Of a DNA stretch of 64,000 nt, positions 2,655-48,784 are shown piece after piece. The stretch is from positions 102,153 to 166,152 of the forward strand of contig CAVQCF010000039.1 of NCBI GenBank assembly GCA_963710885.1, written 5' to 3'. Both the position numbers and the translations under genes were made by a program. The stretch is from an uncultured Acidobacteriaceae bacterium (lineage in GTDB: Bacteria; Acidobacteriota; Terriglobia; Terriglobales; Acidobacteriaceae). The notes below the pieces were generated by a model. It did no database searches, was not told where the DNA came from, and saw nothing but the letters and a program-made list of their open reading frames with translations. The number at the start of each line of letters is the position of its first letter. Within the stretch, counting starts at the first letter, position 1.

Positions 2655-2660
2655 GACCTC

Positions 2661-5087: not shown

Positions 5088-5100
5088 CGTGTGCCTCCCA

Positions 5101-7512: not shown

Positions 7513-7525
7513 TGTTTGCCTCCCA

Positions 7526-10012: not shown

Positions 10013-10018
10013 TGGGCT

Positions 10019-12469: not shown

Positions 12470-12482
12470 CGTTCGCCTTCCA

Positions 12483-14957: not shown

Positions 14958-14975
14958 AGGCTACTCGCTGGCCGT

Positions 14976-15701
14976 TCAAGCGTGCGTGTCAGCCATCAGT
15001 TTCTGTAGCTCTTCCTCTGCCACAACCTTGCCGTCGAAGAGATGTACTTCTCGTTGCGCGTGCTTGGCGAACCGCGGATCGTGCGTCACCATGCAGATGG
15101 TCGCGCCCTCGCGGTGCAGGTTTTGCAGCAACTCCATCACCGCTTCGCCGTTGCGCGAATCCAAATTCCCAGTAGGTTCGTCCGCCAGCAGGATGGAAGG
15201 TTTTCCCCCAAGCGCGCGCGCTACGGCCACACGCTGCTGTTGACCGCCAGACAGCTGCGACGGATAGTGCCGGACGCGGTGCGCCATGCCGACGCGCTCC
15301 AACGCTTCCATGACCCGCGCCTTCCGGTCAGCCGCCGGCATCCGTTGGCGATAGGTCAGAGGCAGTTCGACGTTCTCGTAGACGGTGAGATCGCCAATCA
15401 GGTTGAAGCTCTGAAAGATGAACCCGATCTCCTGATTTCGAATGCGCGAACGCTCCGCAAAATCGAGGTTCTCAACTGTCTTATTGTTGAGTGAGTAGCG
15501 TCCCTGCGTGGGCGTATCGAGCAATCCGATGATGGAAAGCAGCGTCGACTTGCCGCAACCCGAAGGTCCCGACATCGCCACATACTCCCCTTTGGCAATC
15601 GAGAGGTGCACGCCGGAAAGAGCGTGCGTTTCAATTTCGTCGGTGTAGAAGACTTTGGTCAGATCCTGAATCTGGATCAACGGCTGTCCTGTTTCGGTCA
15701 T
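14976..15701 (-). CDS. ABC transporter ATP-binding protein, MacB/LolD/FtsE type (stand-alone NBD)
   Basis: 241 aa. Walker A GPSGCGKST, Q-loop IGFIFQ, signature LSGGQQQRVAVARAL, Walker B ILLADEPTGNLD, H-loop VTHD. Lies 18 nt upstream of the first permease. Confidence 0.95.
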   Translation of the reverse strand: MTETGQPLIQIQDLTKVFYTDEIETHALSGVHLSIAKGEYVAMSGPSGCGKSTLLSIIGLLDTPTQGRYSLNNKTVENLDFAERSRIRNQEIGFIFQSFNLIGDLTVYENVELPLTYRQRMPAADRKARVMEALERVGMAHRVRHYPSQLSGGQQQRVAVARALGGKPSILLADEPTGNLDSRNGEAVMELLQNLHREGATICMVTHDPRFAKHAQREVHLFDGKVVAEEELQKLMADTHA

Positions 15702-35239: not shown

Positions 35240-36697
35240 GTGACCACGATGGCCAGACTCTTCCCTGTTTCACTGATATTCGCCGCCTGCCTTTTCCTGA
35301 ATAGTTGCCCCAACTCGACCACTCCGACGCAAACGTCCATCCCGGGGCCCAGTGTGCAGCTCGTCGAAACCACCGGCGACCGAGCCATGCTATTGCAAGC
35401 GCAGCCGAGCGTCGCGTTCTCTTCCGGGGGAAGTTCGAGCAGTCTCGTCGTCACTGTGGATGCGACAACCCAGTATCAACAGATGGATGGGTTCGGCGGA
35501 TCGCTGACGGATTCTTCCGCCTGGTTGATATGGAACAAGCTCAGTGCCGCGCAGCAAACCACGCTGATGCAACAACTCTTCAGCCCGAGCGGCGGCATCG
35601 GCATCAGTTTTCTGCGGCAGCCCATGGGCGCAACCGACTTCTCGGCCAGCGGAAACTACAGTTACGACGATATGCCCGCGGGCCAGACCGATCCCAATCT
35701 CACGAACTTTTCCATCGCCCACGATACGGCTTACATCATTCCGCTGGTAAAGCAAGCAATCTCCATCAATTCGAGCCTCAAGGTGGTCGCACTGCCATGG
35801 AGTCCGCCCGCATGGATGAAGACCACTGGAACGATGAATGGCGGAAACATGAACCCGGCCTACTTCTCAAGCCTGGCCCAGTATTTCGTCAATTTTGCGC
35901 AGGCATACCAGCAGCAAGGCATCCCGATCTATGCGCTATCGGTGCAGAATGAGCCGCTGTACTCGACTACGGGATACCCGTCCGAATATCTCGCTGCGAA
36001 CGATGAATCCACATTTATCGCCAACAACCTCGGACCGGTCCTGAACACCGCGGGACAGGGAAGCGTGAAGATCTTCGGCTACGAACACAATTGGGATAAC
36101 ACCGCCTATCCGGAGTCGGTGCTCGGGAGTTCTGCCGCGCAGTTCGTCGCCGGAAGTTCGTTTCACTGTTACGCGGGTGATCCCAGCGCCCAATCGACAG
36201 TGGAAACAGCGTTTCCCGCCAAGGACATCTGGTTCACGGAATGCTCTGGCATTACCTCGAGCACATTCGCCGGCGATCTGGTGTGGAATGCGGAGCATTT
36301 GCTGATCGACGCCACGCGCAACTGGGCCCGCAGCGTTTCGCTGTGGAACCTGGCTCTCGATCAGAACTCCGGCCCGAAGAACGGCACTTGCTCCAACTGC
36401 CGCGGGGTTGTGACCATCGACGACAGCGTGTCGCCGGCGAATATTACGTTCAACGTGGAGTACTACATCCTGGGGCACTTGGGAAAATTCGTGGTGTCGG
36501 GCGCGCACCGGATTGGTTCGAACACCTTCGGAGCGGGCAGCATCGAGGATGTCGCCTTCCAGAATCCCGACGGCTCGATTGTTCTCTTCGCCCTGAACTC
36601 GGGCAGCAGCGCCACTAGCTTCACCGTCAGCTTCAAGGGAAAGACCTTCAACTACACTCTGCCTGCGGGTGCGATCGCTACGTTTGAATGGAATTAA
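35240..36697 (+). CDS. Glycoside hydrolase family 30-like (glucosylceramidase / beta-1,6-glucanase / xylanase type), probable lipoprotein
   Basis: 485 aa. Signal with ...ACLFLNSC. QQMDGFGGSLTDSSAW is typical of the GH30 N-terminus. The candidate acid/base is in YALSVQNEP and the candidate nucleophile in IWFTECSG. The start may instead be the ATG at 35249. Confidence 0.8.
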   Translation: MTTMARLFPVSLIFAACLFLNSCPNSTTPTQTSIPGPSVQLVETTGDRAMLLQAQPSVAFSSGGSSSSLVVTVDATTQYQQMDGFGGSLTDSSAWLIWNKLSAAQQTTLMQQLFSPSGGIGISFLRQPMGATDFSASGNYSYDDMPAGQTDPNLTNFSIAHDTAYIIPLVKQAISINSSLKVVALPWSPPAWMKTTGTMNGGNMNPAYFSSLAQYFVNFAQAYQQQGIPIYALSVQNEPLYSTTGYPSEYLAANDESTFIANNLGPVLNTAGQGSVKIFGYEHNWDNTAYPESVLGSSAAQFVAGSSFHCYAGDPSAQSTVETAFPAKDIWFTECSGITSSTFAGDLVWNAEHLLIDATRNWARSVSLWNLALDQNSGPKNGTCSNCRGVVTIDDSVSPANITFNVEYYILGHLGKFVVSGAHRIGSNTFGAGSIEDVAFQNPDGSIVLFALNSGSSATSFTVSFKGKTFNYTLPAGAIATFEWN

Positions 36698-37048: not shown

Positions 37049-39565
37049 TCACCTAGAGTGCGCCAACGTGAACTTGCCTCGCAGTTGGATGTTGTCGGAG
37101 GAGCCCCCGACGAGAATTGTGAAATCTCCCGGCTCCGCGCTCCAATCCTTTTTTGTGACGTCATAAAAGGAAAATGCCCTGCGATCAAGCGTCAGAGTGA
37201 CGCGCCTGGTCTCACCCGGCTTGAGATCTACCTTGGTAAATCCCTTTAATTCTTTGGCGGGCCGGGGAACGCTCGCATGAGAATCGCCCACGTACAACTC
37301 CGCGACTTCCGCCGCCTCGCGATGCCCCGTGTTCATCACGTCGAAAGAAACGGAGACAGGCTCATTCAAGTTTCCGGACTGTGGCGTCACCGATAACTTG
37401 CGGTAAGCGAACATCGAGTAGGAAAGACCGAAACCGAAGGCAAACAGCGGCTTCGTGCCGGAGCGCTCATAGCCGCGATATCCCACGAACACGCCTTCCG
37501 AGTAACTCACCCGGTTGCTGCCCTTTTCGGGGTAGTAGCTGTGAAAGGTAGGATTATCTTCCCAGCGGCGCTCAAACGATGCCGGCAACTTGCCCGACGG
37601 ACTGGTATCGCCAAAAAGAATTTGTGCCAGCGCAGTGCCGCCCTCCTGTCCCGGATACCACGCGTGCAGAATCGCCGGAACGTTATCAATCCAGTGAGTC
37701 ATATCCACGTTGCCACCGGCCGTTACTATCACGATCACGTTCTTGTTGACCGCACTGATTTGCCGGATGAGTTCGTCCTGTCCGCCGGGAAGTTGGAACG
37801 GCCGATCGAAGCCTTCACCCTCAGTCTTGGGATCGAAACCCGCGCAAATGATCACCGCGTCGGCCTTCGCGGCCAAAGGTTTGGTGTCGCGGCCGACGTA
37901 GGCCTCGGCCCGAGTCACGCCGAAACCAACGATCGCAGTGCTCACCGAGTCGAAGTATTCGAGGCGGATTTTATACGCCTGTCCAGCCTCCAGATGACGA
38001 GTAGCGATGTCGAGCGTCTGGGAATGAGGCAGCCAGTCATCGATTGCAATGTCGTCTCCGACATACAGTCGAACTCCGTCATCGGCGGAGGTGTAGAACT
38101 TATAATCCCCGGTTTCCTTGGGAACAAAATACCCGGTCCAGCGAATCGCGAAGTGGTCCACTGGTTCGCCCGGAGCAAAACTGCCTTCTCCCCAGTCGAA
38201 GTGCACGTGCTTGTCGGTCCGCACCAGCGCGGGTGTCCCTTTCAGCTCTTCATTGCTGAAGTATTCGCCTTTGAGGCCGGCCTCACCATGCGGCGCTGTA
38301 ATGAACTCTGAGTTTTCAAAAACTTCATCGAGCGGAGGAACATCGACCGCGTACAACACTTTGGCCTTCGTCCCCAAGCGATTGCTGATGCCTTCCAGAT
38401 AACTCAGGCTGTTGAATGGCTTGGTCTCTGCGCTGCCACCTCCGCTGATCACGGCGGGATAAGCATCTGGGCCAATAACGGCAATGGTCTTCACTTTGTT
38501 CTCATCGAGCGGAAGCAGATTGCCTGAATTCTTCAGCAGAACGATGCTGCCCCGGGCGACATCGAGGGCGGCCTGGCGCCCTTCCTGACTGTAGGTAGGG
38601 ATACCGATATCGGTCTGCGGTTGGTCGAAGAACCCGAACTCGATCGCCGTGCGCAGGATTCTTCGGACCTTGTCGTCGATGGTCGCCACCGCGATCTTGC
38701 CGTCTTTGAGCGCGGGCAGTAACGCATCTCGATTCATGAACGTTGGAGAAGGCATTTCAAGATCGAGCCCACCGTTGGCAGCCGCCACACCGTCGTGCGT
38801 GGCTCCCCAGTCCGACACATCGATCCCTTCGAATCCCCACTCCTTCTTGAGGATGTCGTTGTTCAAACGATTGTTCTGGGTCATGTAGGAGCCGTTCACC
38901 AGGTTGTAGGCGTCCATGACCGCGCCAACGTGTCCCTCCTTCACAGAGGCTTCGAAGGCAGGCAAGTAGATTTCGCGCAGTGTTCTTTCGTCGATGTCGG
39001 AATTGAGAGTCATGCGTGCGAATTCCGAATTATTCCCGGCAAAGTGCTTGGCTGTCGCGATCACACGTTGTGACTGCATACCTTGGATCACGGCGACCGC
39101 CATTCTTGAGGCAAGAAATGGATCCTCCCCGAAGTACTCGAAGTTGCGGCCGTTCATCGGCGCGCGGTAGATGTTCATGCCGGGGCCGAGAATGAAGTGC
39201 ACTCCGCGCGCGCGCGCATCCTGGCCCATGGCGACGCCGAAACGCTTGGCCAGATCAACATCCCAGGATGCAGCGATGGCGATGCCCGCCGGGTACGCAT
39301 TCGCTAACCCGTAGTCGTGAACGCCCATGGGGCCATCAGACATTTTCAAGGAAGGAATGCCGAGGCGAGGAATCGGATGCGTAAAGAAATCGTTGATGCC
39401 GCCGATCATCTCGACCTTTTCATCGAGCGTCATCTGACTGAGAAGTGTATCGACATGTTGCTCAACCTCTGCTTTCGACGGCGCCGATTGAGTCAGACCA
39501 AACGGCGCAAACAACAGGATGATTGCCACTGCAAAGATTCGTGCCCGTAAGATCGCTCGCTTCAT
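37049..39565 (-). CDS. Glycoside hydrolase family 3 beta-glucosidase-like enzyme with inserted PA14 domain
   Basis: The track ORF runs to 39616. I prefer the ATG at 39565 (MKRAILRARIFAVAIILLFAP..., signal peptide, GAGAGGA upstream). GH3 motifs are KHFAGNN and GFEGIDVSDWGA (the SDW nucleophile motif). The PA14 insert reads GLKGEYFSNEELKGTPAL...FAIRWTGYFVPKETGDYKFYTSADDGVRLYV. Confidence 0.9.
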   Translation of the reverse strand: MKRAILRARIFAVAIILLFAPFGLTQSAPSKAEVEQHVDTLLSQMTLDEKVEMIGGINDFFTHPIPRLGIPSLKMSDGPMGVHDYGLANAYPAGIAIAASWDVDLAKRFGVAMGQDARARGVHFILGPGMNIYRAPMNGRNFEYFGEDPFLASRMAVAVIQGMQSQRVIATAKHFAGNNSEFARMTLNSDIDERTLREIYLPAFEASVKEGHVGAVMDAYNLVNGSYMTQNNRLNNDILKKEWGFEGIDVSDWGATHDGVAAANGGLDLEMPSPTFMNRDALLPALKDGKIAVATIDDKVRRILRTAIEFGFFDQPQTDIGIPTYSQEGRQAALDVARGSIVLLKNSGNLLPLDENKVKTIAVIGPDAYPAVISGGGSAETKPFNSLSYLEGISNRLGTKAKVLYAVDVPPLDEVFENSEFITAPHGEAGLKGEYFSNEELKGTPALVRTDKHVHFDWGEGSFAPGEPVDHFAIRWTGYFVPKETGDYKFYTSADDGVRLYVGDDIAIDDWLPHSQTLDIATRHLEAGQAYKIRLEYFDSVSTAIVGFGVTRAEAYVGRDTKPLAAKADAVIICAGFDPKTEGEGFDRPFQLPGGQDELIRQISAVNKNVIVIVTAGGNVDMTHWIDNVPAILHAWYPGQEGGTALAQILFGDTSPSGKLPASFERRWEDNPTFHSYYPEKGSNRVSYSEGVFVGYRGYERSGTKPLFAFGFGLSYSMFAYRKLSVTPQSGNLNEPVSVSFDVMNTGHREAAEVAELYVGDSHASVPRPAKELKGFTKVDLKPGETRRVTLTLDRRAFSFYDVTKKDWSAEPGDFTILVGGSSDNIQLRGKFTLAHSR

Positions 39566-39665
39566 TCCCGTGTCCTCTCGATTTTCGAATCCAGCATAAC
39601 TCAACTCATCCATCACGCTTTTTTCGTTTGACTATCGCGCGGGTCAACTCCACACTAACGCTCTT

Positions 39666-41792
39666 ATGTCTTCTCGTCGGAGCTTTATCACCGGTTCCGC
39701 CGGCGCCATCGCCGGAGCGCTCGCCGCGTCCAAGGCACAGGCGAGCGAAACACGCGCTCAGCCTTGCATTTCGGAAGTAGCCAGCCTTTGCGGGGACTGG
39801 TTTTTCCGCACGGATCCCGACGATCGCGGCGTGAAGAACAACTGGCAGAGTGGGAGCGCCTCCGGTGAAGGCTGGCGAACGGTCACCGTCCCTCATACCT
39901 GGCAAATAGAAACCCCGCTCACCGCTTATCGCGGCGTCGCGTGGTATTGGCGGACTTTCGATCCGCCGCGAATGACTGCGGTTAACGGTGGGCAGGAGCG
40001 CACCGTGCGGGTGGAGTTCGAGGCGGTCTTCCACACCGCTACCGTCTGGGTCAACGGCAAACTTGCTGGGGAACACGCGCGCAAAGGCTACACCGCCTTC
40101 ACGCTCGATCTCACGAATCTTTTACATTGGGGCCAGGGCAATACCATTGCCGTCCGCGTGGACAATGCCTTCAACCAGCATATGGTGCCCCGCGGCCAGT
40201 CAAGCGACTGGGCGAATGATGGAGGCATTTACCGGCCAGCGCAGCTTCTCATCACTCCAAAGACATTTGTGGAGCGCGTGGATGTCGAGGCGGTGCCGGA
40301 TCTGTCCAGCGGGCAAGGGAAACTAACGATCAGCGCGCACCTCCGAAACACCGATGGGAAAGCCTGGAGTGGCAAGGCTTCTTTCGTTGTCATGAAAGAC
40401 GGAGACGGGAAATCTCAGCCCGTCCTGACGGGCTCGGCGAATAAAGCTCTTTCGGTCAAGCCGGGCGCGGTTGAAACCGTCACGCTGCGGGCGACACTGC
40501 CTCAGGCCAAACTATGGCACTTTGATCATCCCCATCTCTATCGCCTGGAGTTTTCCATCGCTGACGAACACCACGAACACACTTTCACAACGATCTTCGG
40601 CGTACGCAAGCTTGAGATTCGAGACGGTGCGTTCTTCCTCAACGGCGAACCTGTGCGACTGATGGGCGTGGAACGTATGGCCGGGAGCAATCCGCAGTTC
40701 GGCATGGCTGAGCCGACGGAGTGGATTACTCACGACCATGCAGACTTGAAACATTTGAACTGTGTCTTCACTCGCGTCCATTGGCCCCAGGACAAGCGAG
40801 TTTTGGAGTACTGCGACCGCCACGGCATTCTTATGCAACCCGAGGTTCCAGCCTGGGGTCCGGACACCTTCGCGGGCATGACCGGCGAGCCCGCCGCGGA
40901 CATCATGCAAAATGCACTCGAGCAATTGCGCGAGATGATTGCTCGGGACTTCAATCATCCATCGGTTGTGGTGTGGGGATTATGCAATGAGATTGGAGGA
41001 CAGAATCCGCCCGCGTACAAGTTTGCCCAGCGCTTGCTGGAGGAGGCCAAGCGGCTGGACCCGAGCCGTCTCTACTCTTACGCTTCGAACTCGCTAGACA
41101 ACACGCCGCAGCACGACGCTGCTGGACCGATGGATTTTATCGAGGCTAACGAATACTTCGGGACATGGGCCCCGGGAACGGCAGGGGATGCGGCGCGTTA
41201 TCTCGACGAGATTCACGCGGCGTTTCCCGGCAAAGCCGTGGTGATTTCCGAATACGGATATTGCGCCTGCACGCCCGACCGGCCGGAAGGCGATGAGCAG
41301 AGAATCGAGATCCTGCGCTCACACGATGCGGTGTTTCGTTCGAAAGACTTTGTCGCCGGAGCGATTTTCTTCTGCTACAACGACTACCGCACGCATATGG
41401 GAGATCGCGGAGTGGGTGTGTTGCAGCAGCGCGTGCATGGCGTGGTTGATGTATACGGCGCGCACAAGGCGTCGTATGAAGTTCTCAGAAGCGAGTCCAG
41501 TCCGATTGCATCGCTCACGGTTGAACGCGACGGGAACAGATTTCACATTCTGATCAGAACTCGCGGCGATCTTCCGATGTACACACTCCGCGGGTACAAG
41601 CTTCGAGGGTTGTTCTTCGGCCCGGGCAACATTCCGGTTGAGCGACAGGAAGTGGAAATACCAGACGCCGCGGCTGGCAGCGAGACGAAGTTGGAACTGG
41701 CGTTCAGCCAGTCGGAATCGCCAATGCATTTGCAGTTCGACGTCGCGCGTCCCACCGGCTTCTCGGCGTATCTTTTAGATTGGAAACCCTAG
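39666..41792 (+). CDS. Glycoside hydrolase family 2 enzyme (beta-galactosidase / beta-glucuronidase / beta-mannosidase type), TAT-exported
   Basis: 708 aa. Twin-arginine signal MSSRRSFITGSAGAIAGALAASKAQA. Sugar-binding N-domain (VPHTWQ...YRGVAWYWRTF). Candidate acid/base in VVWGLCNEIGG and nucleophile in VVISEYGY. Confidence 0.8.
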   Translation: MSSRRSFITGSAGAIAGALAASKAQASETRAQPCISEVASLCGDWFFRTDPDDRGVKNNWQSGSASGEGWRTVTVPHTWQIETPLTAYRGVAWYWRTFDPPRMTAVNGGQERTVRVEFEAVFHTATVWVNGKLAGEHARKGYTAFTLDLTNLLHWGQGNTIAVRVDNAFNQHMVPRGQSSDWANDGGIYRPAQLLITPKTFVERVDVEAVPDLSSGQGKLTISAHLRNTDGKAWSGKASFVVMKDGDGKSQPVLTGSANKALSVKPGAVETVTLRATLPQAKLWHFDHPHLYRLEFSIADEHHEHTFTTIFGVRKLEIRDGAFFLNGEPVRLMGVERMAGSNPQFGMAEPTEWITHDHADLKHLNCVFTRVHWPQDKRVLEYCDRHGILMQPEVPAWGPDTFAGMTGEPAADIMQNALEQLREMIARDFNHPSVVVWGLCNEIGGQNPPAYKFAQRLLEEAKRLDPSRLYSYASNSLDNTPQHDAAGPMDFIEANEYFGTWAPGTAGDAARYLDEIHAAFPGKAVVISEYGYCACTPDRPEGDEQRIEILRSHDAVFRSKDFVAGAIFFCYNDYRTHMGDRGVGVLQQRVHGVVDVYGAHKASYEVLRSESSPIASLTVERDGNRFHILIRTRGDLPMYTLRGYKLRGLFFGPGNIPVERQEVEIPDAAAGSETKLELAFSQSESPMHLQFDVARPTGFSAYLLDWKP

Positions 41793-41867
41793 GTGGACTG
41801 GAAGCCCTAGCCAGCCGATCCGCCAGCGAAAAAATAATCCAGCAGGTCGCAAGCATTTGAATCGTCG

Positions 41868-42731
41868 TCAGACCTGCAGATTGCGAAGGTAGGGCACGCT
41901 GGCTTTCATCATTTCCAAGTCCATTTCGACGAAGTAATTCTTGATGCCGCCGGTTTTGGCGGCGGTAAAGATCTTCTTCCAATCCAGTGAGCCCTGCCCC
42001 ACCGGCACTATTTTCTTGGTCGCCGCCGACCAGCCCTGCACGTGCATGGAAATGAAGCGGCCAGGATACTTCGTGAAATATTCGGCGGCATCGTACCCGC
42101 TACTGATGGTAGAAACCTGGAACTGGAACTTCACCAGCTTGGGATCCAGCAGGCTGAACAGCACGTCATAGGTGCGCTTGCCGTCCACCGTCGAAAGCTC
42201 GAAGGTCTCGTTGTGAAGTCCCTGCTGAATGCCGGCCTTGGCGGCTTGTTCACCCATTTTGTTGTACTCGTCGGCGGCTCGCTTGACCTCATCCATCGTC
42301 GGGTTCTTGGGCCCGTCGAGGCTAGGCACCAGCATCTGGGTGAGGCCGACATCTTTGGCCCAGGCAATCGCTGCCGGCTGATCCTTCCTGAGTTCGTCGA
42401 TGCCGAAATGCGAACTGACGCAGCCGACGCCTGCGTCGCTGAGAATCTTGCGCAGTTCGGTTCCCTTATATTTGGCGAGGCCGGCGAAACCGTTGTCGGC
42501 GTAACCTACCGGGGAGCACAGTTCGATCATCTGAAAACCAGCGCCGGCCAGCACCTTGATGGTGCCGGGAAAGTCCTGCTCGATCATTTTTCTGACGGGC
42601 CAAGTCTGGCATCCAATGGGCAAGCCCAAGGGATTGGCGCGAAGATCCAGCACACCCCTGGAAAGAAGTCCGGCAGCGGTCGTGTAGGCTGCCGCAGTTT
42701 TCAGAAAGTCTCTTCTCGAAATCGGTGACAT
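41868..42731 (-). CDS. Sugar phosphate isomerase/epimerase-family (xylose-isomerase-like TIM barrel) protein, TAT-exported
   Basis: 287 aa. Twin-arginine signal MSPISRRDFLKTAAAYTTAAG. The remainder is typical AP_endonuc_2 / xylose-isomerase-like TIM-barrel sequence (GFQMIELCSP..., VSSHFG..., GLHNETFE..., ISMHVQGW...). Confidence 0.8.
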   Translation of the reverse strand: MSPISRRDFLKTAAAYTTAAGLLSRGVLDLRANPLGLPIGCQTWPVRKMIEQDFPGTIKVLAGAGFQMIELCSPVGYADNGFAGLAKYKGTELRKILSDAGVGCVSSHFGIDELRKDQPAAIAWAKDVGLTQMLVPSLDGPKNPTMDEVKRAADEYNKMGEQAAKAGIQQGLHNETFELSTVDGKRTYDVLFSLLDPKLVKFQFQVSTISSGYDAAEYFTKYPGRFISMHVQGWSAATKKIVPVGQGSLDWKKIFTAAKTGGIKNYFVEMDLEMMKASVPYLRNLQV

Positions 42732-42761
42732 TGACGCCTCCTCAGTGCAGCAGCGCGTTCG

Positions 42762-44318
42762 TTAGAGTTCCCATCCAGTGCGGCGTTCCGGCTTGACATA
42801 TTTCTGAGCGACAGCAGAGTTCACGCTCAGGGTGGAGCGATCCCAGGTAAGAGTCTGCCCCATGCAAGACGCGACGTTTCCGAGGAGCAGCGTCTCGGTG
42901 ACGAGGCCCTCGAATTCGAAGTTCCCGCCAGGCTTCGCCTTGCCGCCTTTGCAGGCGTCGAGCCATTCGCGCTCGTTACCGGGCGAGCGCGGCAGAGTCT
43001 TCGGCGGCTGTTTGTAACCGTCCATCTTGGTTTGGGGAATCAGCTTGGGATTGGCGCCATTGAAGCTACAAAGAATTTTCCCGCGGTCTCCAATAAACAA
43101 CAGCCCTTCATCTTCTTCGCCGTCTCCCTTGAGAGGACGGTTTTCTTCCAGTTCTTCCGGGCGCGTGGGCTTCAGGCCTCCGTCGTACCAGGCAAATTTA
43201 ACCGGCGGCATGTCGCCGCGAGCTGGGAAGTTATAGCGGACGATCGAGGCCAGCGGGTAAGTTTCGTCGTAGCGGTCGCTGGAACTGGATTCCACACTTA
43301 CGGGCGCTTCGAGTTTCAAGACACGAAAGATTGTGTCGAAGCTGTAGGAGCCCATATCGCCCAGCGCACCGCAACCGAAGTCGGTCCACCCACGCCACAC
43401 AAACGGCAGATACGCGTGGTTGAAAGGGCGCTCCGGCGCAGGGCCGAGCCAGAGGTTCCAATCCAAACCCTCGGGCACAGGCTCGGGTTCCTTGGGGCGT
43501 TCGATTCCTTGCGGCCAGAACGGGCGGCTCGACCAATTCTGAACTTGACGAACGGGTCCGATGGCGCCGCTCCAAATCCATTCACAGAGCAACCGAGTAG
43601 CTTCCGATGCCTGGTTGGCTACTGCGATTTGAGTAGCGACGCCGGTTTCCTTGGCGATCTCGGCGATGCGGCGCGCTTCATAGATGGTATGCGTCAGAGG
43701 CTTCTGGCAGAAGACATGCTTGCCTTTCCTCATCGCCGCCGCGGAGACAGACGCGTGCAGGTTGTCGGTTGTACAGACAACGACGGCGTCGAGATCTTTC
43801 TGCTTCTCCAGCAACTCGCGGAAGTCAGTGTAGGTTGCACAGCCTGAATACTGGCCGGAGCGCTGCTGCGTACCGTAATAGCCCTCCACAATTTTCTGGC
43901 ATGGTTCGCGGCCGGCGACGCCGCCCGTCACCGCGAGCGAATGGGACAACCGAATCGGCTGATCGGGGCTGAGCCAATCCCAACCGCTGCTGACGCCGAG
44001 CAGTTTCTGGACAGAATTGCAGAACTCGTGCGTACTCCATTGCGGATAATCCGACCCTGACTTATTGCAGTCGCAGACGGCGACGCCCTGCACGTCGGGC
44101 TCCCGCAAGAAATGCAGCATCACTCGCAAGCCCTGGGCGCCGACGCCGATGAACGCGATATTGACTTTGTCGCTAGGCGGCACATAACCCACGCCGCCTA
44201 ACACTCTGCGCGGAACAATCGAAAAACCAATCGCCGCTGCGGCGGTTCGGCCTAAGAACGTACGCCGCGAAACTGAACCTGTACCACTGCTGCGCGACCG
44301 ACCTTGATTCTTCACCAT
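42762..44318 (-). CDS. Gfo/Idh/MocA-family NAD(P)-dependent oxidoreductase, TAT-exported
   Basis: The track ORF runs to 44345. I prefer the ATG at 44318 (MVKNQGRS...), which is preceded by GGAGGA. Twin-arginine signal SVSRRTFLGRTAAAAIGF. Rossmann motif VNIAFIGVGAQG. 518 aa. Confidence 0.85.
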   Translation of the reverse strand: MVKNQGRSRSSGTGSVSRRTFLGRTAAAAIGFSIVPRRVLGGVGYVPPSDKVNIAFIGVGAQGLRVMLHFLREPDVQGVAVCDCNKSGSDYPQWSTHEFCNSVQKLLGVSSGWDWLSPDQPIRLSHSLAVTGGVAGREPCQKIVEGYYGTQQRSGQYSGCATYTDFRELLEKQKDLDAVVVCTTDNLHASVSAAAMRKGKHVFCQKPLTHTIYEARRIAEIAKETGVATQIAVANQASEATRLLCEWIWSGAIGPVRQVQNWSSRPFWPQGIERPKEPEPVPEGLDWNLWLGPAPERPFNHAYLPFVWRGWTDFGCGALGDMGSYSFDTIFRVLKLEAPVSVESSSSDRYDETYPLASIVRYNFPARGDMPPVKFAWYDGGLKPTRPEELEENRPLKGDGEEDEGLLFIGDRGKILCSFNGANPKLIPQTKMDGYKQPPKTLPRSPGNEREWLDACKGGKAKPGGNFEFEGLVTETLLLGNVASCMGQTLTWDRSTLSVNSAVAQKYVKPERRTGWEL

Positions 44319-44618
44319 TTCCTCCGTTGACCGCACCGCACACATACCAAGTGCCTCTCGGCGCTGTTCCTCTTGAAGTAACTTTACAGAGCCGACGCTT
44401 CAACCCGGATACTGTAAACGAATCCCAGGCCAGCGGGTGTGAAAGTTGCTCCCCAACGTCGACGCCTCGACTGTCTCCGACAGCTGCGAGGGTTGAGCGT
44501 ACAGTTCATTCGCGTGGTGAAGGCCTGGGCCGGCAGCGGAAATTCCGTCTAAGTCATTGATGAATAACTCAATCAGCGGAATCGATCCGCAAATGCTTTT
44601 GTGTGGGAATTGTGGAAT

Positions 44619-44678
44619 CCCGCGTGCACACCTTGTGGCACGCGAGGGCCGAAGGACAAGGCAAGCCCTTCGGCTCCC
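44619..44678 (+). promoter_or_regulatory. Two adjacent stem-loops in the 5' leader of the 44708 gene (function unknown)
   Basis: Hairpin 1: CGCGTGC (44621..44627) / GCACGCG (44638..44644), 10-nt loop. Hairpin 2: GGCCGAAGG (44647..44655) / CCTTCGGC(T)C (44667..44676), 11-nt loop. No U-tract follows. They lie 30-90 nt upstream of the SD GAGGAG. Confidence 0.3.
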
Positions 44679-44707
44679 GGACTTCTAGAATTTGAGGAGA
44701 GTAATCC

Positions 44708-45082
44708 ATGAAAAAGTTTACAGGCCTTATGCTGACGCTTGTCACATTTTCGTTGATGGCGACGATGGCTGCGTTTGCACGAGACAAGAATCATCACAGT
44801 GTTGAAATTCCGGAAACCTTGCAGGTGGGAACCGCTCAGCTGGCGCCCGGAGAATACACAATGGAATGGACGGAAAGCGGAGCCACGGCGGAAGTCACCT
44901 TCGTTCAGCACGGAAAGAGCGTCGTGCAGGCACCGGCGAAGATCGTCACGCTGGATCGTCCGGCCTCATCTGATTCGCTGACCACCAAGACACAGACGAA
45001 CAATTCAATGGCACTCGAAGAGGTTCAGTTCGGGGGACATAAGGAAGCCTTCTCGTTCAGCGACACCCCATCTGGAGAGTAA
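44708..45082 (+). CDS. Small secreted protein of unknown function
   Basis: 124 aa. Strong SD (GAGGAGAG) and signal peptide MKKFTGLMLTLVTFSLMATMAAFA. Followed by a clean terminator. I recognise no family. Confidence 0.6.
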   Translation: MKKFTGLMLTLVTFSLMATMAAFARDKNHHSVEIPETLQVGTAQLAPGEYTMEWTESGATAEVTFVQHGKSVVQAPAKIVTLDRPASSDSLTTKTQTNNSMALEEVQFGGHKEAFSFSDTPSGE

Positions 45083-45095
45083 GAACTGTTGATTC

Positions 45096-45128
45096 GAGAG
45101 CGGGCAGGTGCCCGCTCTCAACTTTTTT
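45096..45128 (+). terminator. Rho-independent terminator
   Basis: Perfect 10-bp stem GAGAGCGGGC (45096..45105) / GCCCGCTCTC (45110..45119) with loop AGGT, followed by AACTTTTTTGT. Confidence 0.8.
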
Positions 45129-45189
45129 GTCTCTGTCCCTCACGTTGGACTTCCCATCCAAGCTGGCCTTCCCTTCCTTCTCCTGATTC

Positions 45190-45218
45190 CGAATCGCAAT
45201 GGCACATTTTCGAATCGC
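45190..45218. promoter_or_regulatory. Direct repeat CGAATCGC x2 (21-nt period) upstream of the RND operon; candidate operator
   Basis: TTCCGAATCGCAATGG (45190..45197 core) and TTTCGAATCGCGGTAT (45211..45218 core), read directly. About 260 nt upstream of the pump ATG. Confidence 0.2.
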
Positions 45219-45477
45219 GGTATCCAGTCGGAGCATCGCTGGCGTACATCCACGTCGGGGTGCTGTCGATGGCCCGACGCGTTCTACACCGTTAACCTTC
45301 TAACCCTTTACCTTCAAGCCGCTAACCCCTTGCGCTTCTTTAGCGTAAAGCTCGGCACGCCGTCCAGCGATTGGTATGGAGCGTGCACTTACCGACTACA
45401 AGTGGGGATTTCGCTCTCACCGATTCATAAGAACAACAGTGCGGGACGGCTTCTGACGAGTCTCGCGTGAGGCAGAT

Positions 45478-48400
45478 ATGTGGATTGTCCGGCTCGCTTT
45501 ACGACGGCCTTATACGTTTGTAGTGCTCGCGATCTTGATCCTGGTGCTGGGGGCGTTCTCCATTGTGCGGACGCCGACAGACATTTTCCCGAATATCAAT
45601 ATTCCAGTCGTCAGCATCATTTGGAATTACAACGGACTGAACGCGCAGGATATGAGCGACCGCATCGTCTCTGTGACAGAGCGTACGCTCACAACCACCG
45701 TCGACAATATCGAGCATATCGAGTCGCAGTCGCTCAATGGAATCGCGGTGGTGAAGGTTTTCTTCCAGCCTAAAGCCAGCGTTGAGCGCGCTATCGCACA
45801 GGTGACGGCGGTTTCGCAGACTCAATTGCGGCAGCTGCCGCAAGGGACGACTCCTCCCCTGGTCATCAGTTACAGTGCGTCCAGTGTGCCCATTCTGCAG
45901 CTTGCACTCTCCGGAGGAAAGCTCTCCGAGCAACAGCTGAATGACTTTGGACTCAACTTTATCCGCACCCGACTGATCACGGTGGAAGGAGCCGCGGTTC
46001 CTTATCCGTATGGCGGCAAGCAGCGGCAAGTGCAAATCGACCTGGACACGGCTGCGCTGCAGTCGAAAGGATTGTCGCCGCTTGATGTGGTCAACGCAAT
46101 CAGTGCGCAGAACCTGATTCTGCCGTCGGGAACGGCGAAGATCGGATCGAAGGAATACGACGTCGATATCAACGGCAGCCCGACCGACATCGCGGGCCTG
46201 AACCAGATACCGATCAAGACCGTGGGCAGCAGCACGATCTACATTCACGACGTGGGTTGGGTGCGAGATGGATTTCCTCCGCAAACCAATATTGTGCGGG
46301 TCGATGGGCAGCGGTCTGTGCTGCTGACGATTCAGAAGGCCGGGAACGCGTCCACATTGGATGTCATCTCCGGCATCAAATCGTTGCTGCCGCAGATCAA
46401 GGCCAGTCTGCCGCCGGAACTCGACATCAAGCCGCTGGCCGACCAGTCTATCTTTGTGCGCGCGTCGATTGATGGCGTGATCAAGGAAGCGACGATTGCC
46501 GCATGTTTGACCGGGCTGATGATTCTGATTTTCCTGGGAAGCTGGCGCAGCACTCTGATCATCGCGGTTTCGATTCCGCTGTCGATTTTGACGTCGATCA
46601 TCGTGCTCAGCGCTCTGGGCGAAACGATCAACATCATGACGCTGGGCGGACTGGCGCTGGCGGTCGGGATTCTCGTCGACGACGCAACCGTCGAGATCGA
46701 GAATATCAATCGAAACATTGCGCAAGGAAAGGAGATTCAGCAGGCAATTCTTGATGGCGCGCAGCAGATTGCGGTTCCTGCGTTTGTTTCGACCCTTTGC
46801 ATTTGCATAGTGTTCGTTCCGATGTTCTTTCTGACTGGTGTTGCACGGTATCTGTTTGTGCCGCTCGCCGAATCGGTTGTGTTCGCGATGCTCGCCTCTT
46901 ATCTGCTGTCGCGCACGCTGGTGCCGACCATGGCGAAGTACCTGCTGCGCGGTCACGAGCAAGAGGCTGGGCACATCCCCGGGTCGAGCAGCAATCCTCT
47001 GGTTCGTCTGCAGATTCGGTTCGAAGAGGGCTTCGAGCATCTGCGCGAGCGCTACCAGCGGGTGTTGGAAGGCTGCCTGAACCATCGGCGAGGATTTCTG
47101 TTGGGTGTGCTGGCGTTTTCCATCGTCTCGCTGGCGGCGCTCATTCCTTTCCTGGGGCAGGATTTCTTTCCCACGGTCGATAGTGGTCAGTTCAAACTGC
47201 ACCTTCGCGCTCCGACGGGGACTCGCATTGAAGAAACCGCGCGGCTCTGCGACCTGGTGGAACAGTCGATCCGGCAGCAGATTCCGCCGTCAGAAGTTTC
47301 CAGCATCATCGACAACATCGGGATTCCCTACAGCGGCATCAACCTGTCTTACAGCAATTCGGCGCCAATTGGGTCGGCGGACGCGGACATTCTGGTCAGC
47401 CTTTCGACCGACCATCGGCCGACCGACAAGTATGTGCACGATCTGCGGTTCAGTTTGGCCGAGCGAATTTCCAGGCGTTACTTTTGCTTTTCTTCCTGCC
47501 GACATCGTGAGCCAGATTTTGAACTTCGGGCTGCCTGCTCCGATTGACATTCAGGTGGCGGGTAACGATCTGCAGGGAAACCGGCGCTATGCCGACAACG
47601 TGCTGCAACGAGTGCGCGGAATTGCCGGGACCGCAGATCTGCGGATTCAGCAGCCCTTCGACCAGCCCGAACTTCACATTGATGTGGATCGCACCAAGGC
47701 GAACCAAATCGGATTCACGCAGCACGACGTTGCGCAAAATCTGCTGGTCTCGCTGAGCGGGAGCTTTCAGACGTCGCCAACATTCTGGCTCGATCCGAAC
47801 AATCGCGTGAGCTATTCGATCGCGACCCAGACGCCGCAGTACCGGATTCAAACGTTGCAGGACCTCGAGAACATTCCGGTAACGGCGGCCTAACCCCGCG
47901 GCGCCTCCAGAGATTCTGGGCGAGTTTGGCATCGGTCAAGCGGCAAGTGATATGCCGGTCGTTTCGCACTACAACATTCGTCCGGTAATCGATATTTACG
48001 GATCGGTGCAAGGCCGCGATCTGGGCGCGGTGGCGCGACGAGATTCAATCGGATCGTCGCCGAGACGCAGAGATCCTTCCTCGCGGGTCGCAAGTGATTG
48101 TGCGCGGGCAGGTGCGAACGATGCGGTCGTCTTATATCGGTCTGCTGGCCGGGCTGGCGTTTTCGATCATGCTGGTGTACCTGCTGATCGTGGTGAATTT
48201 CCAGTCGTGGCTCGATCCGTTCATCATCATCTCGGCGCTGCCTGCGGCGCTGGCGGGAATCGTATGGTTTCTGTTCGTCAGCCACACCACGGTCAGCGTG
48301 CCGGCGCTGACTGGCACCATCATGTGCATGGGCGTGGCCACCGCCAACAGCATTCTGGTGGTGAGCTTTGCGACCGAGCAGATGCAGGGAGGAAAAGACG

Positions 48401-48672
48401 CGATCGCGGCCGCGCTGGAGGCCGGGTATACGCGATTTCGTCCGGTGTTGATGACTGCCTTGGCAATGATCATCGGCATGGTACCGATGGCTCTGGGATT
48501 GGGCGAAGGCGGCGAGCAGAATGCGCCGCTGGGCCGCGCCGTGATTGGCGGTCTGCTTTTTGCGACGGTCGCGACTTTGTTGTTCGTGCCAACCCTGTTC
48601 AGCGTGCTGCACGGATCTCGCCGCAGCATCGCTGGGCAGGAAAACCAATCGAATCTTCAAGAGTCCCGGTAA
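45478..48672 (+). pseudogene. RND (AcrB/HAE1-type) inner-membrane efflux pump, interrupted by about 5 frameshifts between 47.46 and 48.08 kb
   Basis: The N-terminus MWIVRLALRRPYTFVVLAILILVLGAFSI... is clean to ~47465. The correct frame then moves to the 47105..47893 ORF (FPGVTFAFLPADIVSQILNFGLPAPIDIQVAG...ENIPVTAA). Near 47891 it moves to NPAAPPEILGEFGIGQAASDMPVVSHYNIRPVIDIYGSVQGRDLGAVAR. Three more shifts fall at ~48037, ~48050 and ~48075 (DEIQS / RIVAETQRS / LPRGSQVIVRGQVRTM). From 48094 to 48672 the sequence is clean (SYIGLLAGLAFSIMLVYLLIVVNFQSW...LFVPTLFSVL). Confidence 0.8.
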
Positions 48673-48784
48673 GAAAGTGGGGAAGTATGCCAGTTGAAAC
48701 AGCTGCGGAAGACAAAGTGACGATCGAAGAAGTGACGTCACAGTATCAAAAGTCCGTCAAGCCCCAGCATGGATAGCCGCGATC

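What the first reader, a model, noticed from the sequence alone, without database searches (positions are those of the whole stretch)
41868..44318. Periplasmic (TAT-exported) Gfo/Idh/MocA oxidoreductase + xylose-isomerase-fold protein next to GH2/GH3/GH30: candidate oxidative, non-hydrolytic glycoside-cleavage module
Seen: both adjacent minus-strand genes start with twin-arginine signals (SRRTFLG, SRRDFLK), so they are exported folded and, for the oxidoreductase, cofactor-loaded. They sit directly beside three glycoside hydrolases, one of which is also TAT-exported. Established: pairs of a Gfo/Idh/MocA-type sugar 3-oxidising dehydrogenase with sugar-phosphate-isomerase/epimerase-fold (xylose-isomerase-like TIM barrel) lyases carry out keto-glycoside formation followed by elimination. 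Examples are the C-glycoside deglycosylation systems of the DgpA/DgpBC type and the 3-keto-glycoside pathways. Inference: this pair may cleave glycosides that resist the neighbouring hydrolases through oxidation and beta-elimination in the periplasm. An NAD(P)-dependent step there would need an unexplained redox partner.
Basis: partly seen in the sequence, partly recalled or inferred. Interest (0 to 1): 0.6.

Follow-up and report, generated by a model that had tools for sequence, protein, structure and literature searches.

The report
Periplasmic oxidise-then-eliminate glycoside-cleaving enzyme pair
Two co-transcribed, Tat-exported genes of a soil acidobacterium are divergent relatives of a bacterial enzyme pair, described in 2020-2024, that cleaves sugar linkages by oxidising the sugar and then eliminating its partner; the type is known, but this abundant soil branch has a remodelled active site and no tested substrate.

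Summary
Window 42762-44318(-) encodes a Tat-signal Gfo/Idh/MocA oxidoreductase. Window 41868-42731(-) encodes a Tat-signal xylose-isomerase-like TIM barrel. They are 30 bp apart, with a GAGGAGG ribosome-binding site and no terminator-like site called between them, and they lie beside GH2, GH3 and GH30 genes.

The closest characterised relatives are not DgpA/DgpBC. They are the Alistipes/Bacteroides "alternative glycan breakdown" enzymes. The oxidoreductase best matches glucoside 3-dehydrogenase AL3 (BT2158 type).

Both proteins are divergent:
- Barrel: base/substrate His is Glu175, metal Asp is Gln205, Trp is Thr208, Lys-Asp is Gln-Gly.
- Dehydrogenase: active-site His is Tyr, and it carries a ~70-residue insert.

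These changes are fixed across more than 120 close relatives (75% identity or more).

The two genes co-occur exactly in 20 of 41 related genomes. They are adjacent in at least 66 of 80 species loci. The GH neighbours are kept only in the closest kin, so a functional link to them is not supported.

Verdict: a new variant of a known kind. Substrate and activity are untested.

The parts
42762..44318 (-). Tat-exported Gfo/Idh/MocA oxidoreductase, AL3/BT2158-like glycoside 3-dehydrogenase subfamily (518 aa from ATG 44318; the ORF is open back to ATG 44345)
   Evidence: Pfam PF01408 and PF19051. NCBIfam NF058561 BT_2158_fam scores 394.9 bits, below the 750 cut-off. phmmer to AL3 (8TDF/8TDH) gives E 1.4e-82. 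Foldseek places 8TDF first at 8.4e-28, with the next hit at 1e-13. GGAGGA precedes ATG 44318.
44250..44270 (-). Twin-arginine motif SRRTFLG of the oxidoreductase
   Evidence: Read directly. R18, R19 and F21 are invariant in 25 orthologues. TIGR01409 gives 16.0 bits against a cut-off of 16.7.
43854..44063 (-). Insertion of about 70 residues in the Rossmann domain, relative to AL3
   Evidence: The phmmer alignment jumps from query 94 to 165 while the AL3 chain runs 43 to 53. The BT_2158 model match splits at model positions 68/75. The insert is present in all 10 sequences printed (about 16 residues shorter in L097 and L008). In the AF2 model it is partly helical with a low-confidence loop.
42732..42761 (-). 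30-bp intergenic spacer with a GAGGAGG ribosome-binding site; the two genes form one transcription unit
   Evidence: Sequence read. The scan called no terminator-like site between the genes.
41868..42731 (-). Tat-exported xylose-isomerase-like TIM barrel, a divergent member of the 3-keto-beta-glycoside 1,2-lyase family (AL1/BT2156/AtOGE)
   Evidence: PF01261. phmmer: AtOGE 8BVK 5e-18; BT1 8TCT, 8TCS and AL1 8TCD about 3-5e-16; D-tagatose epimerase and UlaE only 0.05-0.1. AF2 pLDDT is 93.7. Foldseek's top hits are AL1, BT1 and AtOGE.
42699..42719 (-). Twin-arginine motif SRRDFLK of the TIM barrel
   Evidence: Pfam TAT_signal E 5.5e-5. TIGR01409 gives 26.7 bits. R6, R7 and F9 are at least 90% conserved across 42 family representatives.

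Best explanation
This is a self-contained two-gene periplasmic module of the oxidation / beta-elimination route of glycoside cleavage.

Proposed mechanism:
1. The oxidoreductase folds in the cytoplasm around NAD and is exported by Tat.
2. In the periplasm it oxidises the C3 hydroxyl of a non-reducing-end pyranoside to a ketone.
3. The Tat-exported, metal-dependent TIM barrel binds the 3-keto group at its metal site (His173, His230, Glu269, perhaps Gln205).
4. The barrel removes the C2 proton and expels the aglycone or next sugar, leaving a 2-hydroxy-3-keto-glycal. Glu175 is the most likely base, because it occupies the position of the AtOGE catalytic His.
5. The glycal is hydrated, either slowly by the barrel itself or by DUF1080 proteins encoded elsewhere in the genome.
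6. The resulting 3-keto-sugar re-oxidises the enzyme-bound NADH, so no external redox partner is needed.

What is shown: gene structure, Tat motifs, family and fold relationships, residue mapping, co-occurrence and adjacency. What is inferred: every catalytic step, the bound cofactor, the role of Glu175, and the substrate.

Both active sites are remodelled relative to the gluco-specific AL/BT enzymes. The sugar or linkage preference probably differs and cannot be named.
For: Oxidoreductase:
- The nearest solved relative by a wide margin is Alistipes glucoside-3-dehydrogenase AL3 (E 1.4e-82, Foldseek 8.4e-28 against 1e-13 for the next hit).
- The best NCBIfam hit is BT_2158_fam, glycoside 3-dehydrogenase.
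- AL3 residues Arg192, Trp195 and Asp248 are kept (alignment; invariant).
- GxGxxG and the Asp that closes strand beta-2 are present.

TIM barrel:
- His108, His173, His230 and Glu269 are kept; His173, His230 and Glu269 are invariant in 42 diverse representatives.
- Glu175 is fixed in all 121 relatives of 75% identity or more.

Linkage of the two genes:
- 30-bp spacer with a ribosome-binding site.
- Orthologues of both genes are found in exactly the same 20 of 41 related genomes, and are adjacent in 19 of them.
- The oxidoreductase lies directly upstream in 66-69 of 80 species loci.

Context in distant relatives of the barrel fits 3-keto-sugar chemistry:
- GH97, MFS, GFO, TIM.
- Two DUF1080 genes, TIM, MFS.
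- GH78-like, GFO, TIM, DUF1080, GFO, TIM.

Published biochemistry:
- AL3/BT3 keep NAD bound, and it is proposed to be recycled by 3-keto-glucose.
- BT2158 plus BT2156 cleave cellobiose and glucosinolates.
- BT2158 has a Tat signal.

The genome also encodes TatC and three DUF1080 proteins.
Against: - No activity, cofactor or expression data exist for this clade.
- The barrel lacks several residues used by the characterised lyases: metal Asp211 is Gln205; substrate/catalytic His180 (AtOGE His134, whose H134A variant is inactive) is Glu175; Trp214 is Thr208; the Lys-Asp after the second metal His is Gln-Gly. The AL1 base Glu272 corresponds to Asp271, which is Asn in about half of the orthologues.
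- In the tree, the barrel falls in the half of the family that lacks the Trp. By their motif, all characterised enzymes belong to the other half.
- In the oxidoreductase, AL3 His252 (contacts OH-3) is Tyr and Tyr349 (contacts OH-2) is Asn.
- The oxidoreductase scores only about half the NCBIfam equivalog cut-off.
- No hydratase gene is linked to the pair in Terriglobia.
- The AF2 model of the oxidoreductase has only moderate confidence (pLDDT 70.6).
Confidence: 0.65

Rival explanations
1. The oxidoreductase makes a 3-keto-glycoside or 3-keto-sugar, but the remodelled barrel is not a lyase. It would act on the keto intermediate as an epimerase or isomerase (as in E. coli YcjS/YcjR, recalled from memory), or only as the glycal hydratase or a dehydratase.
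For: Five to six active-site positions differ from all characterised lyases, and these differences are fixed in the clade. A carboxylate base next to a metal-bound ketone is what the epimerases of this fold use (general knowledge of D-tagatose 3-epimerase and UlaE, which appear as weaker fold matches). AL1/BT1 themselves have weak hydratase activity.
Against: By sequence the barrel is about 15 orders of magnitude closer to the lyases than to any epimerase or IolE. The base position of AtOGE keeps an acid/base residue. Relatives sit beside DUF1080 lyase/hydratases and glycoside hydrolases, which fits glycoside cleavage.
Confidence: 0.17
2. The pair handles free monosaccharides, cyclitols or anhydrosugars in the periplasm, in the manner of IolG/IolE or the levoglucosan Lgd enzymes, rather than glycosides.
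For: There are weak NCBIfam hits to inositol 2-dehydrogenase, levoglucosan dehydrogenase and IolE. Flanking genes in most Terriglobia loci are unrelated to glycan use.
Against: All those hits are far below cut-off: 58.8 against 355 bits; 59.7 against 650; 15.8 against 290. AL3 and the lyases are much closer. AL/BT enzymes do not use levoglucosan.
Confidence: 0.08
3. One reading: the pair is a dedicated accessory of the adjacent GH2/GH3/GH30 (and of the TonB receptor and two-component system). It would form one PUL-like unit that finishes off linkages those hydrolases cannot cut.
For: The genes are physically adjacent in the window and in its closest kin, at 90% barrel identity or more. The AL/BT enzymes are exo-acting and were suggested to work alongside endo-glycosidases. 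GH genes of other families lie next to distant homologues of the pair.
Against: GH2, GH3 and GH30 accompany the pair in only 6, 8 and 4 of 80 species loci. No neighbour family recurs in more than 13 of 80. The ten commonest neighbour families annotated are regulators, a recombinase, pilus proteins, a permease and the like. GH2 is convergent, so there is no shared transcript.
Confidence: 0.1

Closest known systems
[quoted passage not shown]
   Same: Both have a Tat-exported Gfo/Idh/MocA 3-dehydrogenase and a secreted xylose-isomerase-like TIM barrel encoded together. These are the best sequence and fold matches for both proteins. Two metal His and the invariant strand-8 Glu are kept in the barrel. 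Arg, Trp and Asp of the sugar pocket are kept in the dehydrogenase.
   Different: This locus has two genes only: no DUF1080 alpha-lyase/hydratase, no second cytoplasmic oxidoreductase and no SusR-like regulator. Barrel changes: Asp211 to Gln, His180 to Glu, Trp214 to Thr, Lys-Asp to Gln-Gly. Dehydrogenase changes: His252 to Tyr, Tyr349 to Asn, plus a ~70-residue insert, and a score of 395 bits against the 750-bit equivalog cut-off. The barrel uses Tat rather than the secretion (non-twin-arginine) signal peptide reported for AL1. The host is a soil Terriglobia bacterium, not a gut Bacteroidota.
AtOGE, O-glycoside beta-eliminase of Agrobacterium tumefaciens (PDB 8BVK; Bitter et al. 2023, PMC10628242)
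   Same: It is the best sequence match of the barrel (E 5e-18). It has the same fold and corresponding metal ligands His132, His189 and Glu233. Asp235 corresponds to Asp271.
   Different: The catalytic His134 is Glu175 here, and metal Asp163 is Gln205. AtOGE partners with an FAD-dependent GlycDH rather than an NAD-bound Gfo enzyme. The window's genome has a separate canonical AtOGE-type barrel in the same gene cluster as a GMC oxidoreductase (L094).
DgpA / DgpB-DgpC C-glycoside deglycosylation system
   Same: The same general logic applies: a Gfo-family 3-oxidation followed by metal-dependent elimination in a TIM-barrel enzyme.
   Different: The relationship is remote. DgpA scores E 8e-11 by sequence and about 1e-12 by fold, against 1e-82 and 8e-28 for AL3. 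No DgpB/C chain appeared among the barrel's sequence matches up to E 1 or its top 50 fold matches. There is no two-subunit lyase here. The Dgp system carries no Tat signals (from memory). AL1/BT1 do not cleave 3-keto-C-glycosides.
Zymomonas mobilis glucose-fructose oxidoreductase (GFOR)
   Same: It is a Tat-exported Gfo/Idh/MocA enzyme with a non-dissociating nicotinamide cofactor that shuttles between two sugar substrates (summarised in PMC8121099). From memory, and not checked here, GFOR also uses a Tyr at the acid/base position.
   Different: The sequence relationship is distant (E about 1e-7). GFOR oxidises C1 of free glucose and has no lyase partner.

Membership tests
AL3/BT2158-type periplasmic glycoside 3-dehydrogenase (NCBIfam NF058561) | Score above the curated equivalog cut-off (750 bits) | tested here: not met
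   394.9 bits, E 4.5e-118. The match is split by the insert at model positions 68/75.
AL3/BT2158-type periplasmic glycoside 3-dehydrogenase (NCBIfam NF058561) | Closest solved relative is AL3, by both sequence and fold | tested here: met
   phmmer 1.4e-82. Foldseek 8.4e-28 and TM 0.75 on the target, with the next hit at 1e-13. The model pLDDT is only 70.6.
AL3/BT2158-type periplasmic glycoside 3-dehydrogenase (NCBIfam NF058561) | Twin-arginine signal peptide | tested here: met
   SRRTFLG is present. R-R-x-F is invariant in 25 orthologues. TIGR01409 gives 16.0 bits, marginally under the 16.7 cut-off.
AL3/BT2158-type periplasmic glycoside 3-dehydrogenase (NCBIfam NF058561) | Sugar-pocket and catalytic residues of AL3 (Arg192, Trp195, Asp248, His252, Tyr349) | tested here: inconclusive
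   Arg, Trp and Asp are kept and invariant. His252 is Tyr (the D-M-G-x-Y motif, invariant). Tyr349 is Asn or His.
AL3/BT2158-type periplasmic glycoside 3-dehydrogenase (NCBIfam NF058561) | Tightly bound NAD and C3 oxidation of glycosides | not testable with these tools
   Only GxGxxG and the Asp after strand beta-2 can be read from the sequence.
3-keto-beta-glycoside 1,2-lyase (AL1 / BT2156 / AtOGE) | Xylose-isomerase-like TIM barrel whose nearest relatives are the lyases, not IolE, Hyi or the epimerases | tested here: met
   PF01261. Lyases score 5e-18 to 5e-16, against 0.05 or worse for epimerases. Foldseek's top hits are AL1, BT1 and AtOGE. IolE scores 15.8 bits against a 290-bit cut-off.
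3-keto-beta-glycoside 1,2-lyase (AL1 / BT2156 / AtOGE) | Metal ligands His-Asp-His (plus the strand-8 Glu) | tested here: not met
   His173, His230 and Glu269 are kept. The Asp is Gln205 in every sequence of the clade.
3-keto-beta-glycoside 1,2-lyase (AL1 / BT2156 / AtOGE) | Second His of the H-N-H motif (AtOGE catalytic His134; AL1 substrate-binding His180) | tested here: not met
   The motif reads H-N-E. Glu175 is fixed in 121 of 121 relatives of 75% identity or more, and the Glu175/Gln205 set forms one clade (SH-aLRT 97).
3-keto-beta-glycoside 1,2-lyase (AL1 / BT2156 / AtOGE) | AL1 catalytic Glu272 and substrate-binding Trp214 | tested here: not met
   Glu272 corresponds to Asp271, which is Asn in 66 and Asp in 54 of the close orthologues. 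Trp214 corresponds to Thr208.
3-keto-beta-glycoside 1,2-lyase (AL1 / BT2156 / AtOGE) | Elimination activity on 3-keto-beta-glycosides | not testable with these tools
   This needs an enzyme assay.
DgpA/DgpBC C-glycoside deglycosylase | Close homology to DgpA, and a two-subunit DgpB/DgpC lyase | tested here: not met
   DgpA scores E 8e-11. No DgpB/C chain appeared among the barrel's sequence matches up to E 1 or its top 50 fold matches. There is a single barrel gene.
Inositol catabolism pair IolG/IolE | Scores above the NCBIfam equivalog cut-offs | tested here: not met
   TIGR04380 scores 58.8 against 355 bits. TIGR04379 scores 15.8 against 290 bits.
PUL-like unit with GH2/GH3/GH30 | Conserved co-localisation across species | tested here: not met
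   GH2 is present in 6, GH3 in 8 and GH30 in 4 of 80 loci, all close kin. No neighbour family exceeds 13 of 80.

The most novel reading that the evidence does not exclude
The Glu175/Gln205 barrel and the Tyr-type, insert-bearing dehydrogenase may together form a distinct functional class of the oxidation-elimination pathway. This class could have a different sugar, linkage or leaving-group specificity from the gluco-specific gut enzymes, or a different elimination or epimerisation chemistry. It uses a His-His-Glu metal site and a carboxylate base. It is abundant in peat and soil Terriglobia: over 8000 database relatives of the barrel and at least 545 stretches in the species-representative genome collection. 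If so, non-Koshland glycoside cleavage would extend to soil carbon turnover.
Probability: 0.3. Interest if true: 0.6.

Novelty: new variant of a known kind. Interest (0 to 1): 0.4.

Why it matters
The oxidation-elimination route to breaking glycosidic bonds was established only in 2020-2024, and in gut Bacteroidota. It can cut linkages that ordinary hydrolases cannot, including thio-glycosides and pseudo-glycosides.

This locus shows a compact, Tat-exported two-gene version that is common in peat and soil Terriglobia. Its active-site residues are systematically altered in both enzymes. If it is active, it marks an uncharacterised branch of that pathway in organisms central to soil organic-matter turnover. 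It would also offer a natural test of which residue acts as the base in these lyases: the His proposed for AtOGE or the Glu proposed for AL1.

If it merely duplicates AL/BT activity, the finding is an ordinary homologue with generic annotation.

Tried and rejected
- **Expression evidence.** The look-up of sequencing runs listed no RNA holder, only soil-metagenome DNA contigs. Nothing can be said about expression or co-regulation.
- **The Nature paper.** It is not held. I used the bioRxiv preprint instead.
- **GFOR Tyr217.** The literature look-up found nothing, so that comparison rests on memory only.
- **Follow-up papers on 3-keto-glycoside enzymes, 2024 onward.** The search returned five papers, and none of their titles or abstracts concerns Acidobacteria or this variant.
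- **Sigma-70 promoter scan of 41600-45500.** It found nothing. The terminator-like hits were at background level, apart from the one after the small secreted-protein gene.
- **Placing AL1, BT1 and AtOGE on the tree.** Their clade was therefore inferred from the motif (HHDWHDE), not from the tree. The careful tree search did not finish, so the quick IQ-TREE tree with SH-aLRT support was used.
- **Rejected: GH109/GH4-type single-enzyme NAD glycosidase.** AL3 is far closer, and the barrel partner is strictly co-inherited.
- **Rejected: levoglucosan (Lgd) pathway.** LgdA scores only E 7e-11.
- **Complex prediction was not used.** The published enzymes are interchangeable between systems and do not form obligate complexes.
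- **P0132.** It had no contig on record.
Full report
**1. Observation**

- The TIM-barrel gene is 41868-42731, 287 aa. It opens with MSPISRRDFLK. It matches Pfam TAT_signal and AP_endonuc_2 and scores 26.7 bits on TIGR01409.
- The oxidoreductase ORF runs 42762-44345. The ATG at 44318 follows GGAGGA and is the likely start.
- Its SRRTFLG motif scores 16.0 bits on TIGR01409, just under the 16.7 cut-off. However, R-R-x-F is invariant in 25 orthologues.
- Its residues from about 50 onward align to the first residues of the crystallised AL3 chain.
- The two genes are 30 bp apart, with a GAGGAGG ribosome-binding site and no terminator-like site called between them. They form one transcription unit.
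- The neighbours are GH2 (39666-41792, plus strand, with its own Tat signal), GH3 with PA14 (37049-39616, minus strand) and GH30 (35240-36697, plus strand).
- GH2 is convergent with the pair, so no GH gene shares its transcript.
- The genome (7.8 Mb, 46 contigs) encodes TatC.
- Related loci come from Terriglobia / Candidatus Sulfotelmatobacter-like MAGs. The DNA holders of the window's stretch are soil metagenome runs.

**2. What the two proteins are**

*Oxidoreductase.*
- Its best NCBIfam hit is BT_2158_fam, "glycoside 3-dehydrogenase", at 394.9 bits. This is far above inositol, levoglucosan or xylose dehydrogenase models, but below the 750-bit equivalog cut-off.
- Against solved structures, Alistipes glucoside-3-dehydrogenase AL3 (8TDF/8TDH) scores E 1.4e-82. 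The next hit scores 1e-13 and DgpA 8e-11.
- The AF2 model has only moderate confidence (pLDDT 70.6). Foldseek with it again puts AL3 first, at 8.4e-28 against 1e-13 for the next hit.

*TIM barrel.*
- Its best sequence matches are AtOGE (8BVK, 5e-18) and then 8TCT, 8TCS and 8TCD (about 3-5e-16). Epimerases reach only 0.05-0.1.
- Its AF2 model is confident (pLDDT 93.7).
- The top fold matches are titled "3-Keto-beta-glucopyranoside-1,2-Lyase" AL1 and BT1, followed by AtOGE.

**3. What is known about those relatives**

- Liou et al. showed that BT2158, together with BT2156 or BT2157, cleaves glucosinolates. With BT2156 it cleaves cellobiose, and with BT2157 it cleaves maltose.
- Liu et al. showed that BT2158 has a Tat signal. 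They proposed a tightly bound cofactor, as in GFOR.
- The Nasseri et al. preprint established the following:
  - AL3/BT3 oxidise C3 using non-exchanging NAD.
  - The DUF1080 proteins AL2/BT2 are alpha-lyases and glycal hydratases.
  - The bound NADH is most likely re-oxidised by the 3-keto-glucose product.
- Bitter et al. described AtOGE. Its Mn site uses His132, Asp163, His189 and Glu233, and His134 is essential.

Its "unexplained redox partner" has a published explanation.

**4. How this pair differs**

I mapped the published residues through the HMMER alignments.

*Barrel.*

| Published residue (AL1 / AtOGE) | Here | Status |
|---|---|---|
| His103 / His66 | His108 | kept |
| His178 / His132 | His173 | kept |
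| His237 / His189 | His230 | kept |
| strand-8 Glu (AtOGE Glu233) | Glu269 | kept |
| His180 / His134 | Glu175 | changed |
| Asp211 / Asp163 | Gln205 | changed |
| Trp214 (AL1) | Thr208 | changed |
| Lys-Asp after the second metal His | Gln-Gly | changed |
| Glu272 (proposed AL1 base) | Asp271 | Asn or Asp in orthologues |

- All 121 relatives of 75% identity or more read H-H-E-Q-Q-T-H-(G or S)-E-(N or D) at these positions. Remote family members read H-H-H-(E/Q)-D-W-H-D-E-(D/E), as AtOGE and AL1 do.
- A quick maximum-likelihood tree makes the Glu175/Gln205 set one clade (SH-aLRT 97). It sits inside a Gln205 clade (98), in the half of the family that lacks the Trp.
- By motif, all characterised enzymes belong to the Trp half. 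This placement is by motif only, not on the tree.
- The substitutions roughly conserve charge (His/Asp becomes Glu/Gln; Lys/Asp becomes Gln/Gly). My inference is that this points to a remodelled but functional site rather than a dead one.

*Dehydrogenase.*
- Arg192, Trp195 and Asp248 of AL3 are kept.
- His252 is Tyr, in an invariant D-M-G-x-Y motif, and Tyr349 is Asn.
- A ~70-residue insert follows strand beta-2.

**5. Is the pair a unit, and are the GH genes part of it?**

- In 41 related genomes, orthologues of both genes occur in exactly the same 20, and they are adjacent in 19.
- In 80 loci from the species-representative genome collection, the oxidoreductase lies directly upstream of the barrel in 66-69.
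- GH2, GH3 and GH30 accompany the pair in only 6, 8 and 4 of these loci. All of these are close kin, with barrel identity of 90% or more.
- No other neighbour family recurs in more than 13 of 80. The ten commonest neighbour families I annotated have unrelated functions.
- The module is therefore the two genes alone. Synteny with the hydrolases is recent and lineage-specific.
- Across the phylum the clade is patchy, at 8 of 301 genomes sampled.
- Distant relatives of the barrel do sit in carbohydrate contexts:
  - GH97, MFS, GFO(528 aa), TIM.
  - Two DUF1080-FG-GAP genes, TIM, MFS.
  - GH78-like, GFO, TIM, DUF1080, GFO, TIM.
- This supports 3-keto-sugar chemistry in general.

**6. Other systems in the same genome**

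- A canonical barrel with the H-N-H, Asp, Trp motif and a Tat signal lies with BON, DUF4349, a GMC oxidoreductase and GH47 (L094). This arrangement is repeated at an unrelated metagenomic locus that also carries a Gluconate_2-dh3 subunit. It resembles the FAD-type GlycDH plus OGE system.
- Three DUF1080 genes lie elsewhere in the genome, one of them next to another Gfo gene.

**7. Conclusion**

Best reading (about 0.65): this is a Tat-exported, NAD-bound glycoside 3-dehydrogenase with a metal-dependent 3-keto-glycoside lyase. It is redox-neutral overall, Glu175 is the probable base, and the substrate is unknown and probably not the gluco set of AL/BT.

Rivals:
- The barrel is an epimerase, isomerase or hydratase acting on the keto intermediate (about 0.17).
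- The pair uses free sugars or cyclitols (about 0.08).
- As a separate question, whether the pair is functionally integrated with the adjacent hydrolases: about 0.1.

No expression or activity data could be obtained.

The type of system is known. The clade is an uncharacterised variant of it.

Noticed in passing
window 45478-48741: The RND (AcrB-type) pump gene is broken. The ORF from 45478 stops at 47547 after 689 aa (ACR_tran model positions 1-607 of 1021), and reading continues in other frames. Close relatives carry an intact gene of about 1063 aa at the same place (for example L017:3632-6823). This fits indel errors or frameshifts in this assembly.
   Followed up: partly
window 204-15701: Six tandem minus-strand genes of about 803-828 aa lie upstream of an ABC ATPase gene (14976-15701). 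The first and last were scanned and are MacB_PCD + FtsX permeases; the other four were not scanned. This is an unusually long run of paralogous orphan-type permeases.
   Followed up: partly
L094 (G000:C39:444000-459000), barrel at L094:7348-8292(-): The genome holds a second, canonical lyase-type barrel with a Tat signal and the H-N-H, Asp, Trp motif of AtOGE/AL1. It lies with BON, DUF4349, a GMC (FAD) oxidoreductase and GH47. The BON, TIM, DUF4349, GMC order recurs at L100 with a Gluconate_2-dh3 subunit. This is probably an FAD-type glycoside 3-dehydrogenase plus eliminase system.
   Followed up: partly
L096 (G000:C12:115000-128000): A Gfo/Idh/MocA gene (6401-7429, minus) lies next to a DUF1080 / 3-keto-disaccharide hydrolase-family gene (7706-8266, minus) and a 1089-aa BNR/sortilin-like protein. 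The DUF1080 protein is a candidate hydratase/alpha-lyase encoded away from the window's pair.
   Followed up: no
L038, L059, L066 (GFO at L059:4442-5992, L066:8397-9947, L038:8141-9820 reversed): Barrel orthologues of 81-83% identity sit next to an oxidoreductase only about 50% identical to the window's, though it has the same insert and a D-M-G-C-Y motif. In L038 the two genes are divergently oriented. So two dehydrogenase lineages pair with one barrel orthologue, which recalls the interchangeability of modules reported for AL/BT.
   Followed up: partly
L097 (metagenome / GCA_049510555.1 contig), 1234-12474: A fuller gene set surrounds a 57%-identical barrel: GH78-like rhamnosidase, GFO (511 aa), TIM, then DUF1080, a second GFO (445 aa) and a second TIM barrel. 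This composition is close to BT2156-BT2159.
   Followed up: no
window 44708-45082(+): This is a small (124 aa) signal-peptide protein with no Pfam match. It is divergent from the pair and followed by a strong terminator-like hairpin at 45096-45119. It separates the pair from the RND operon.
   Followed up: no
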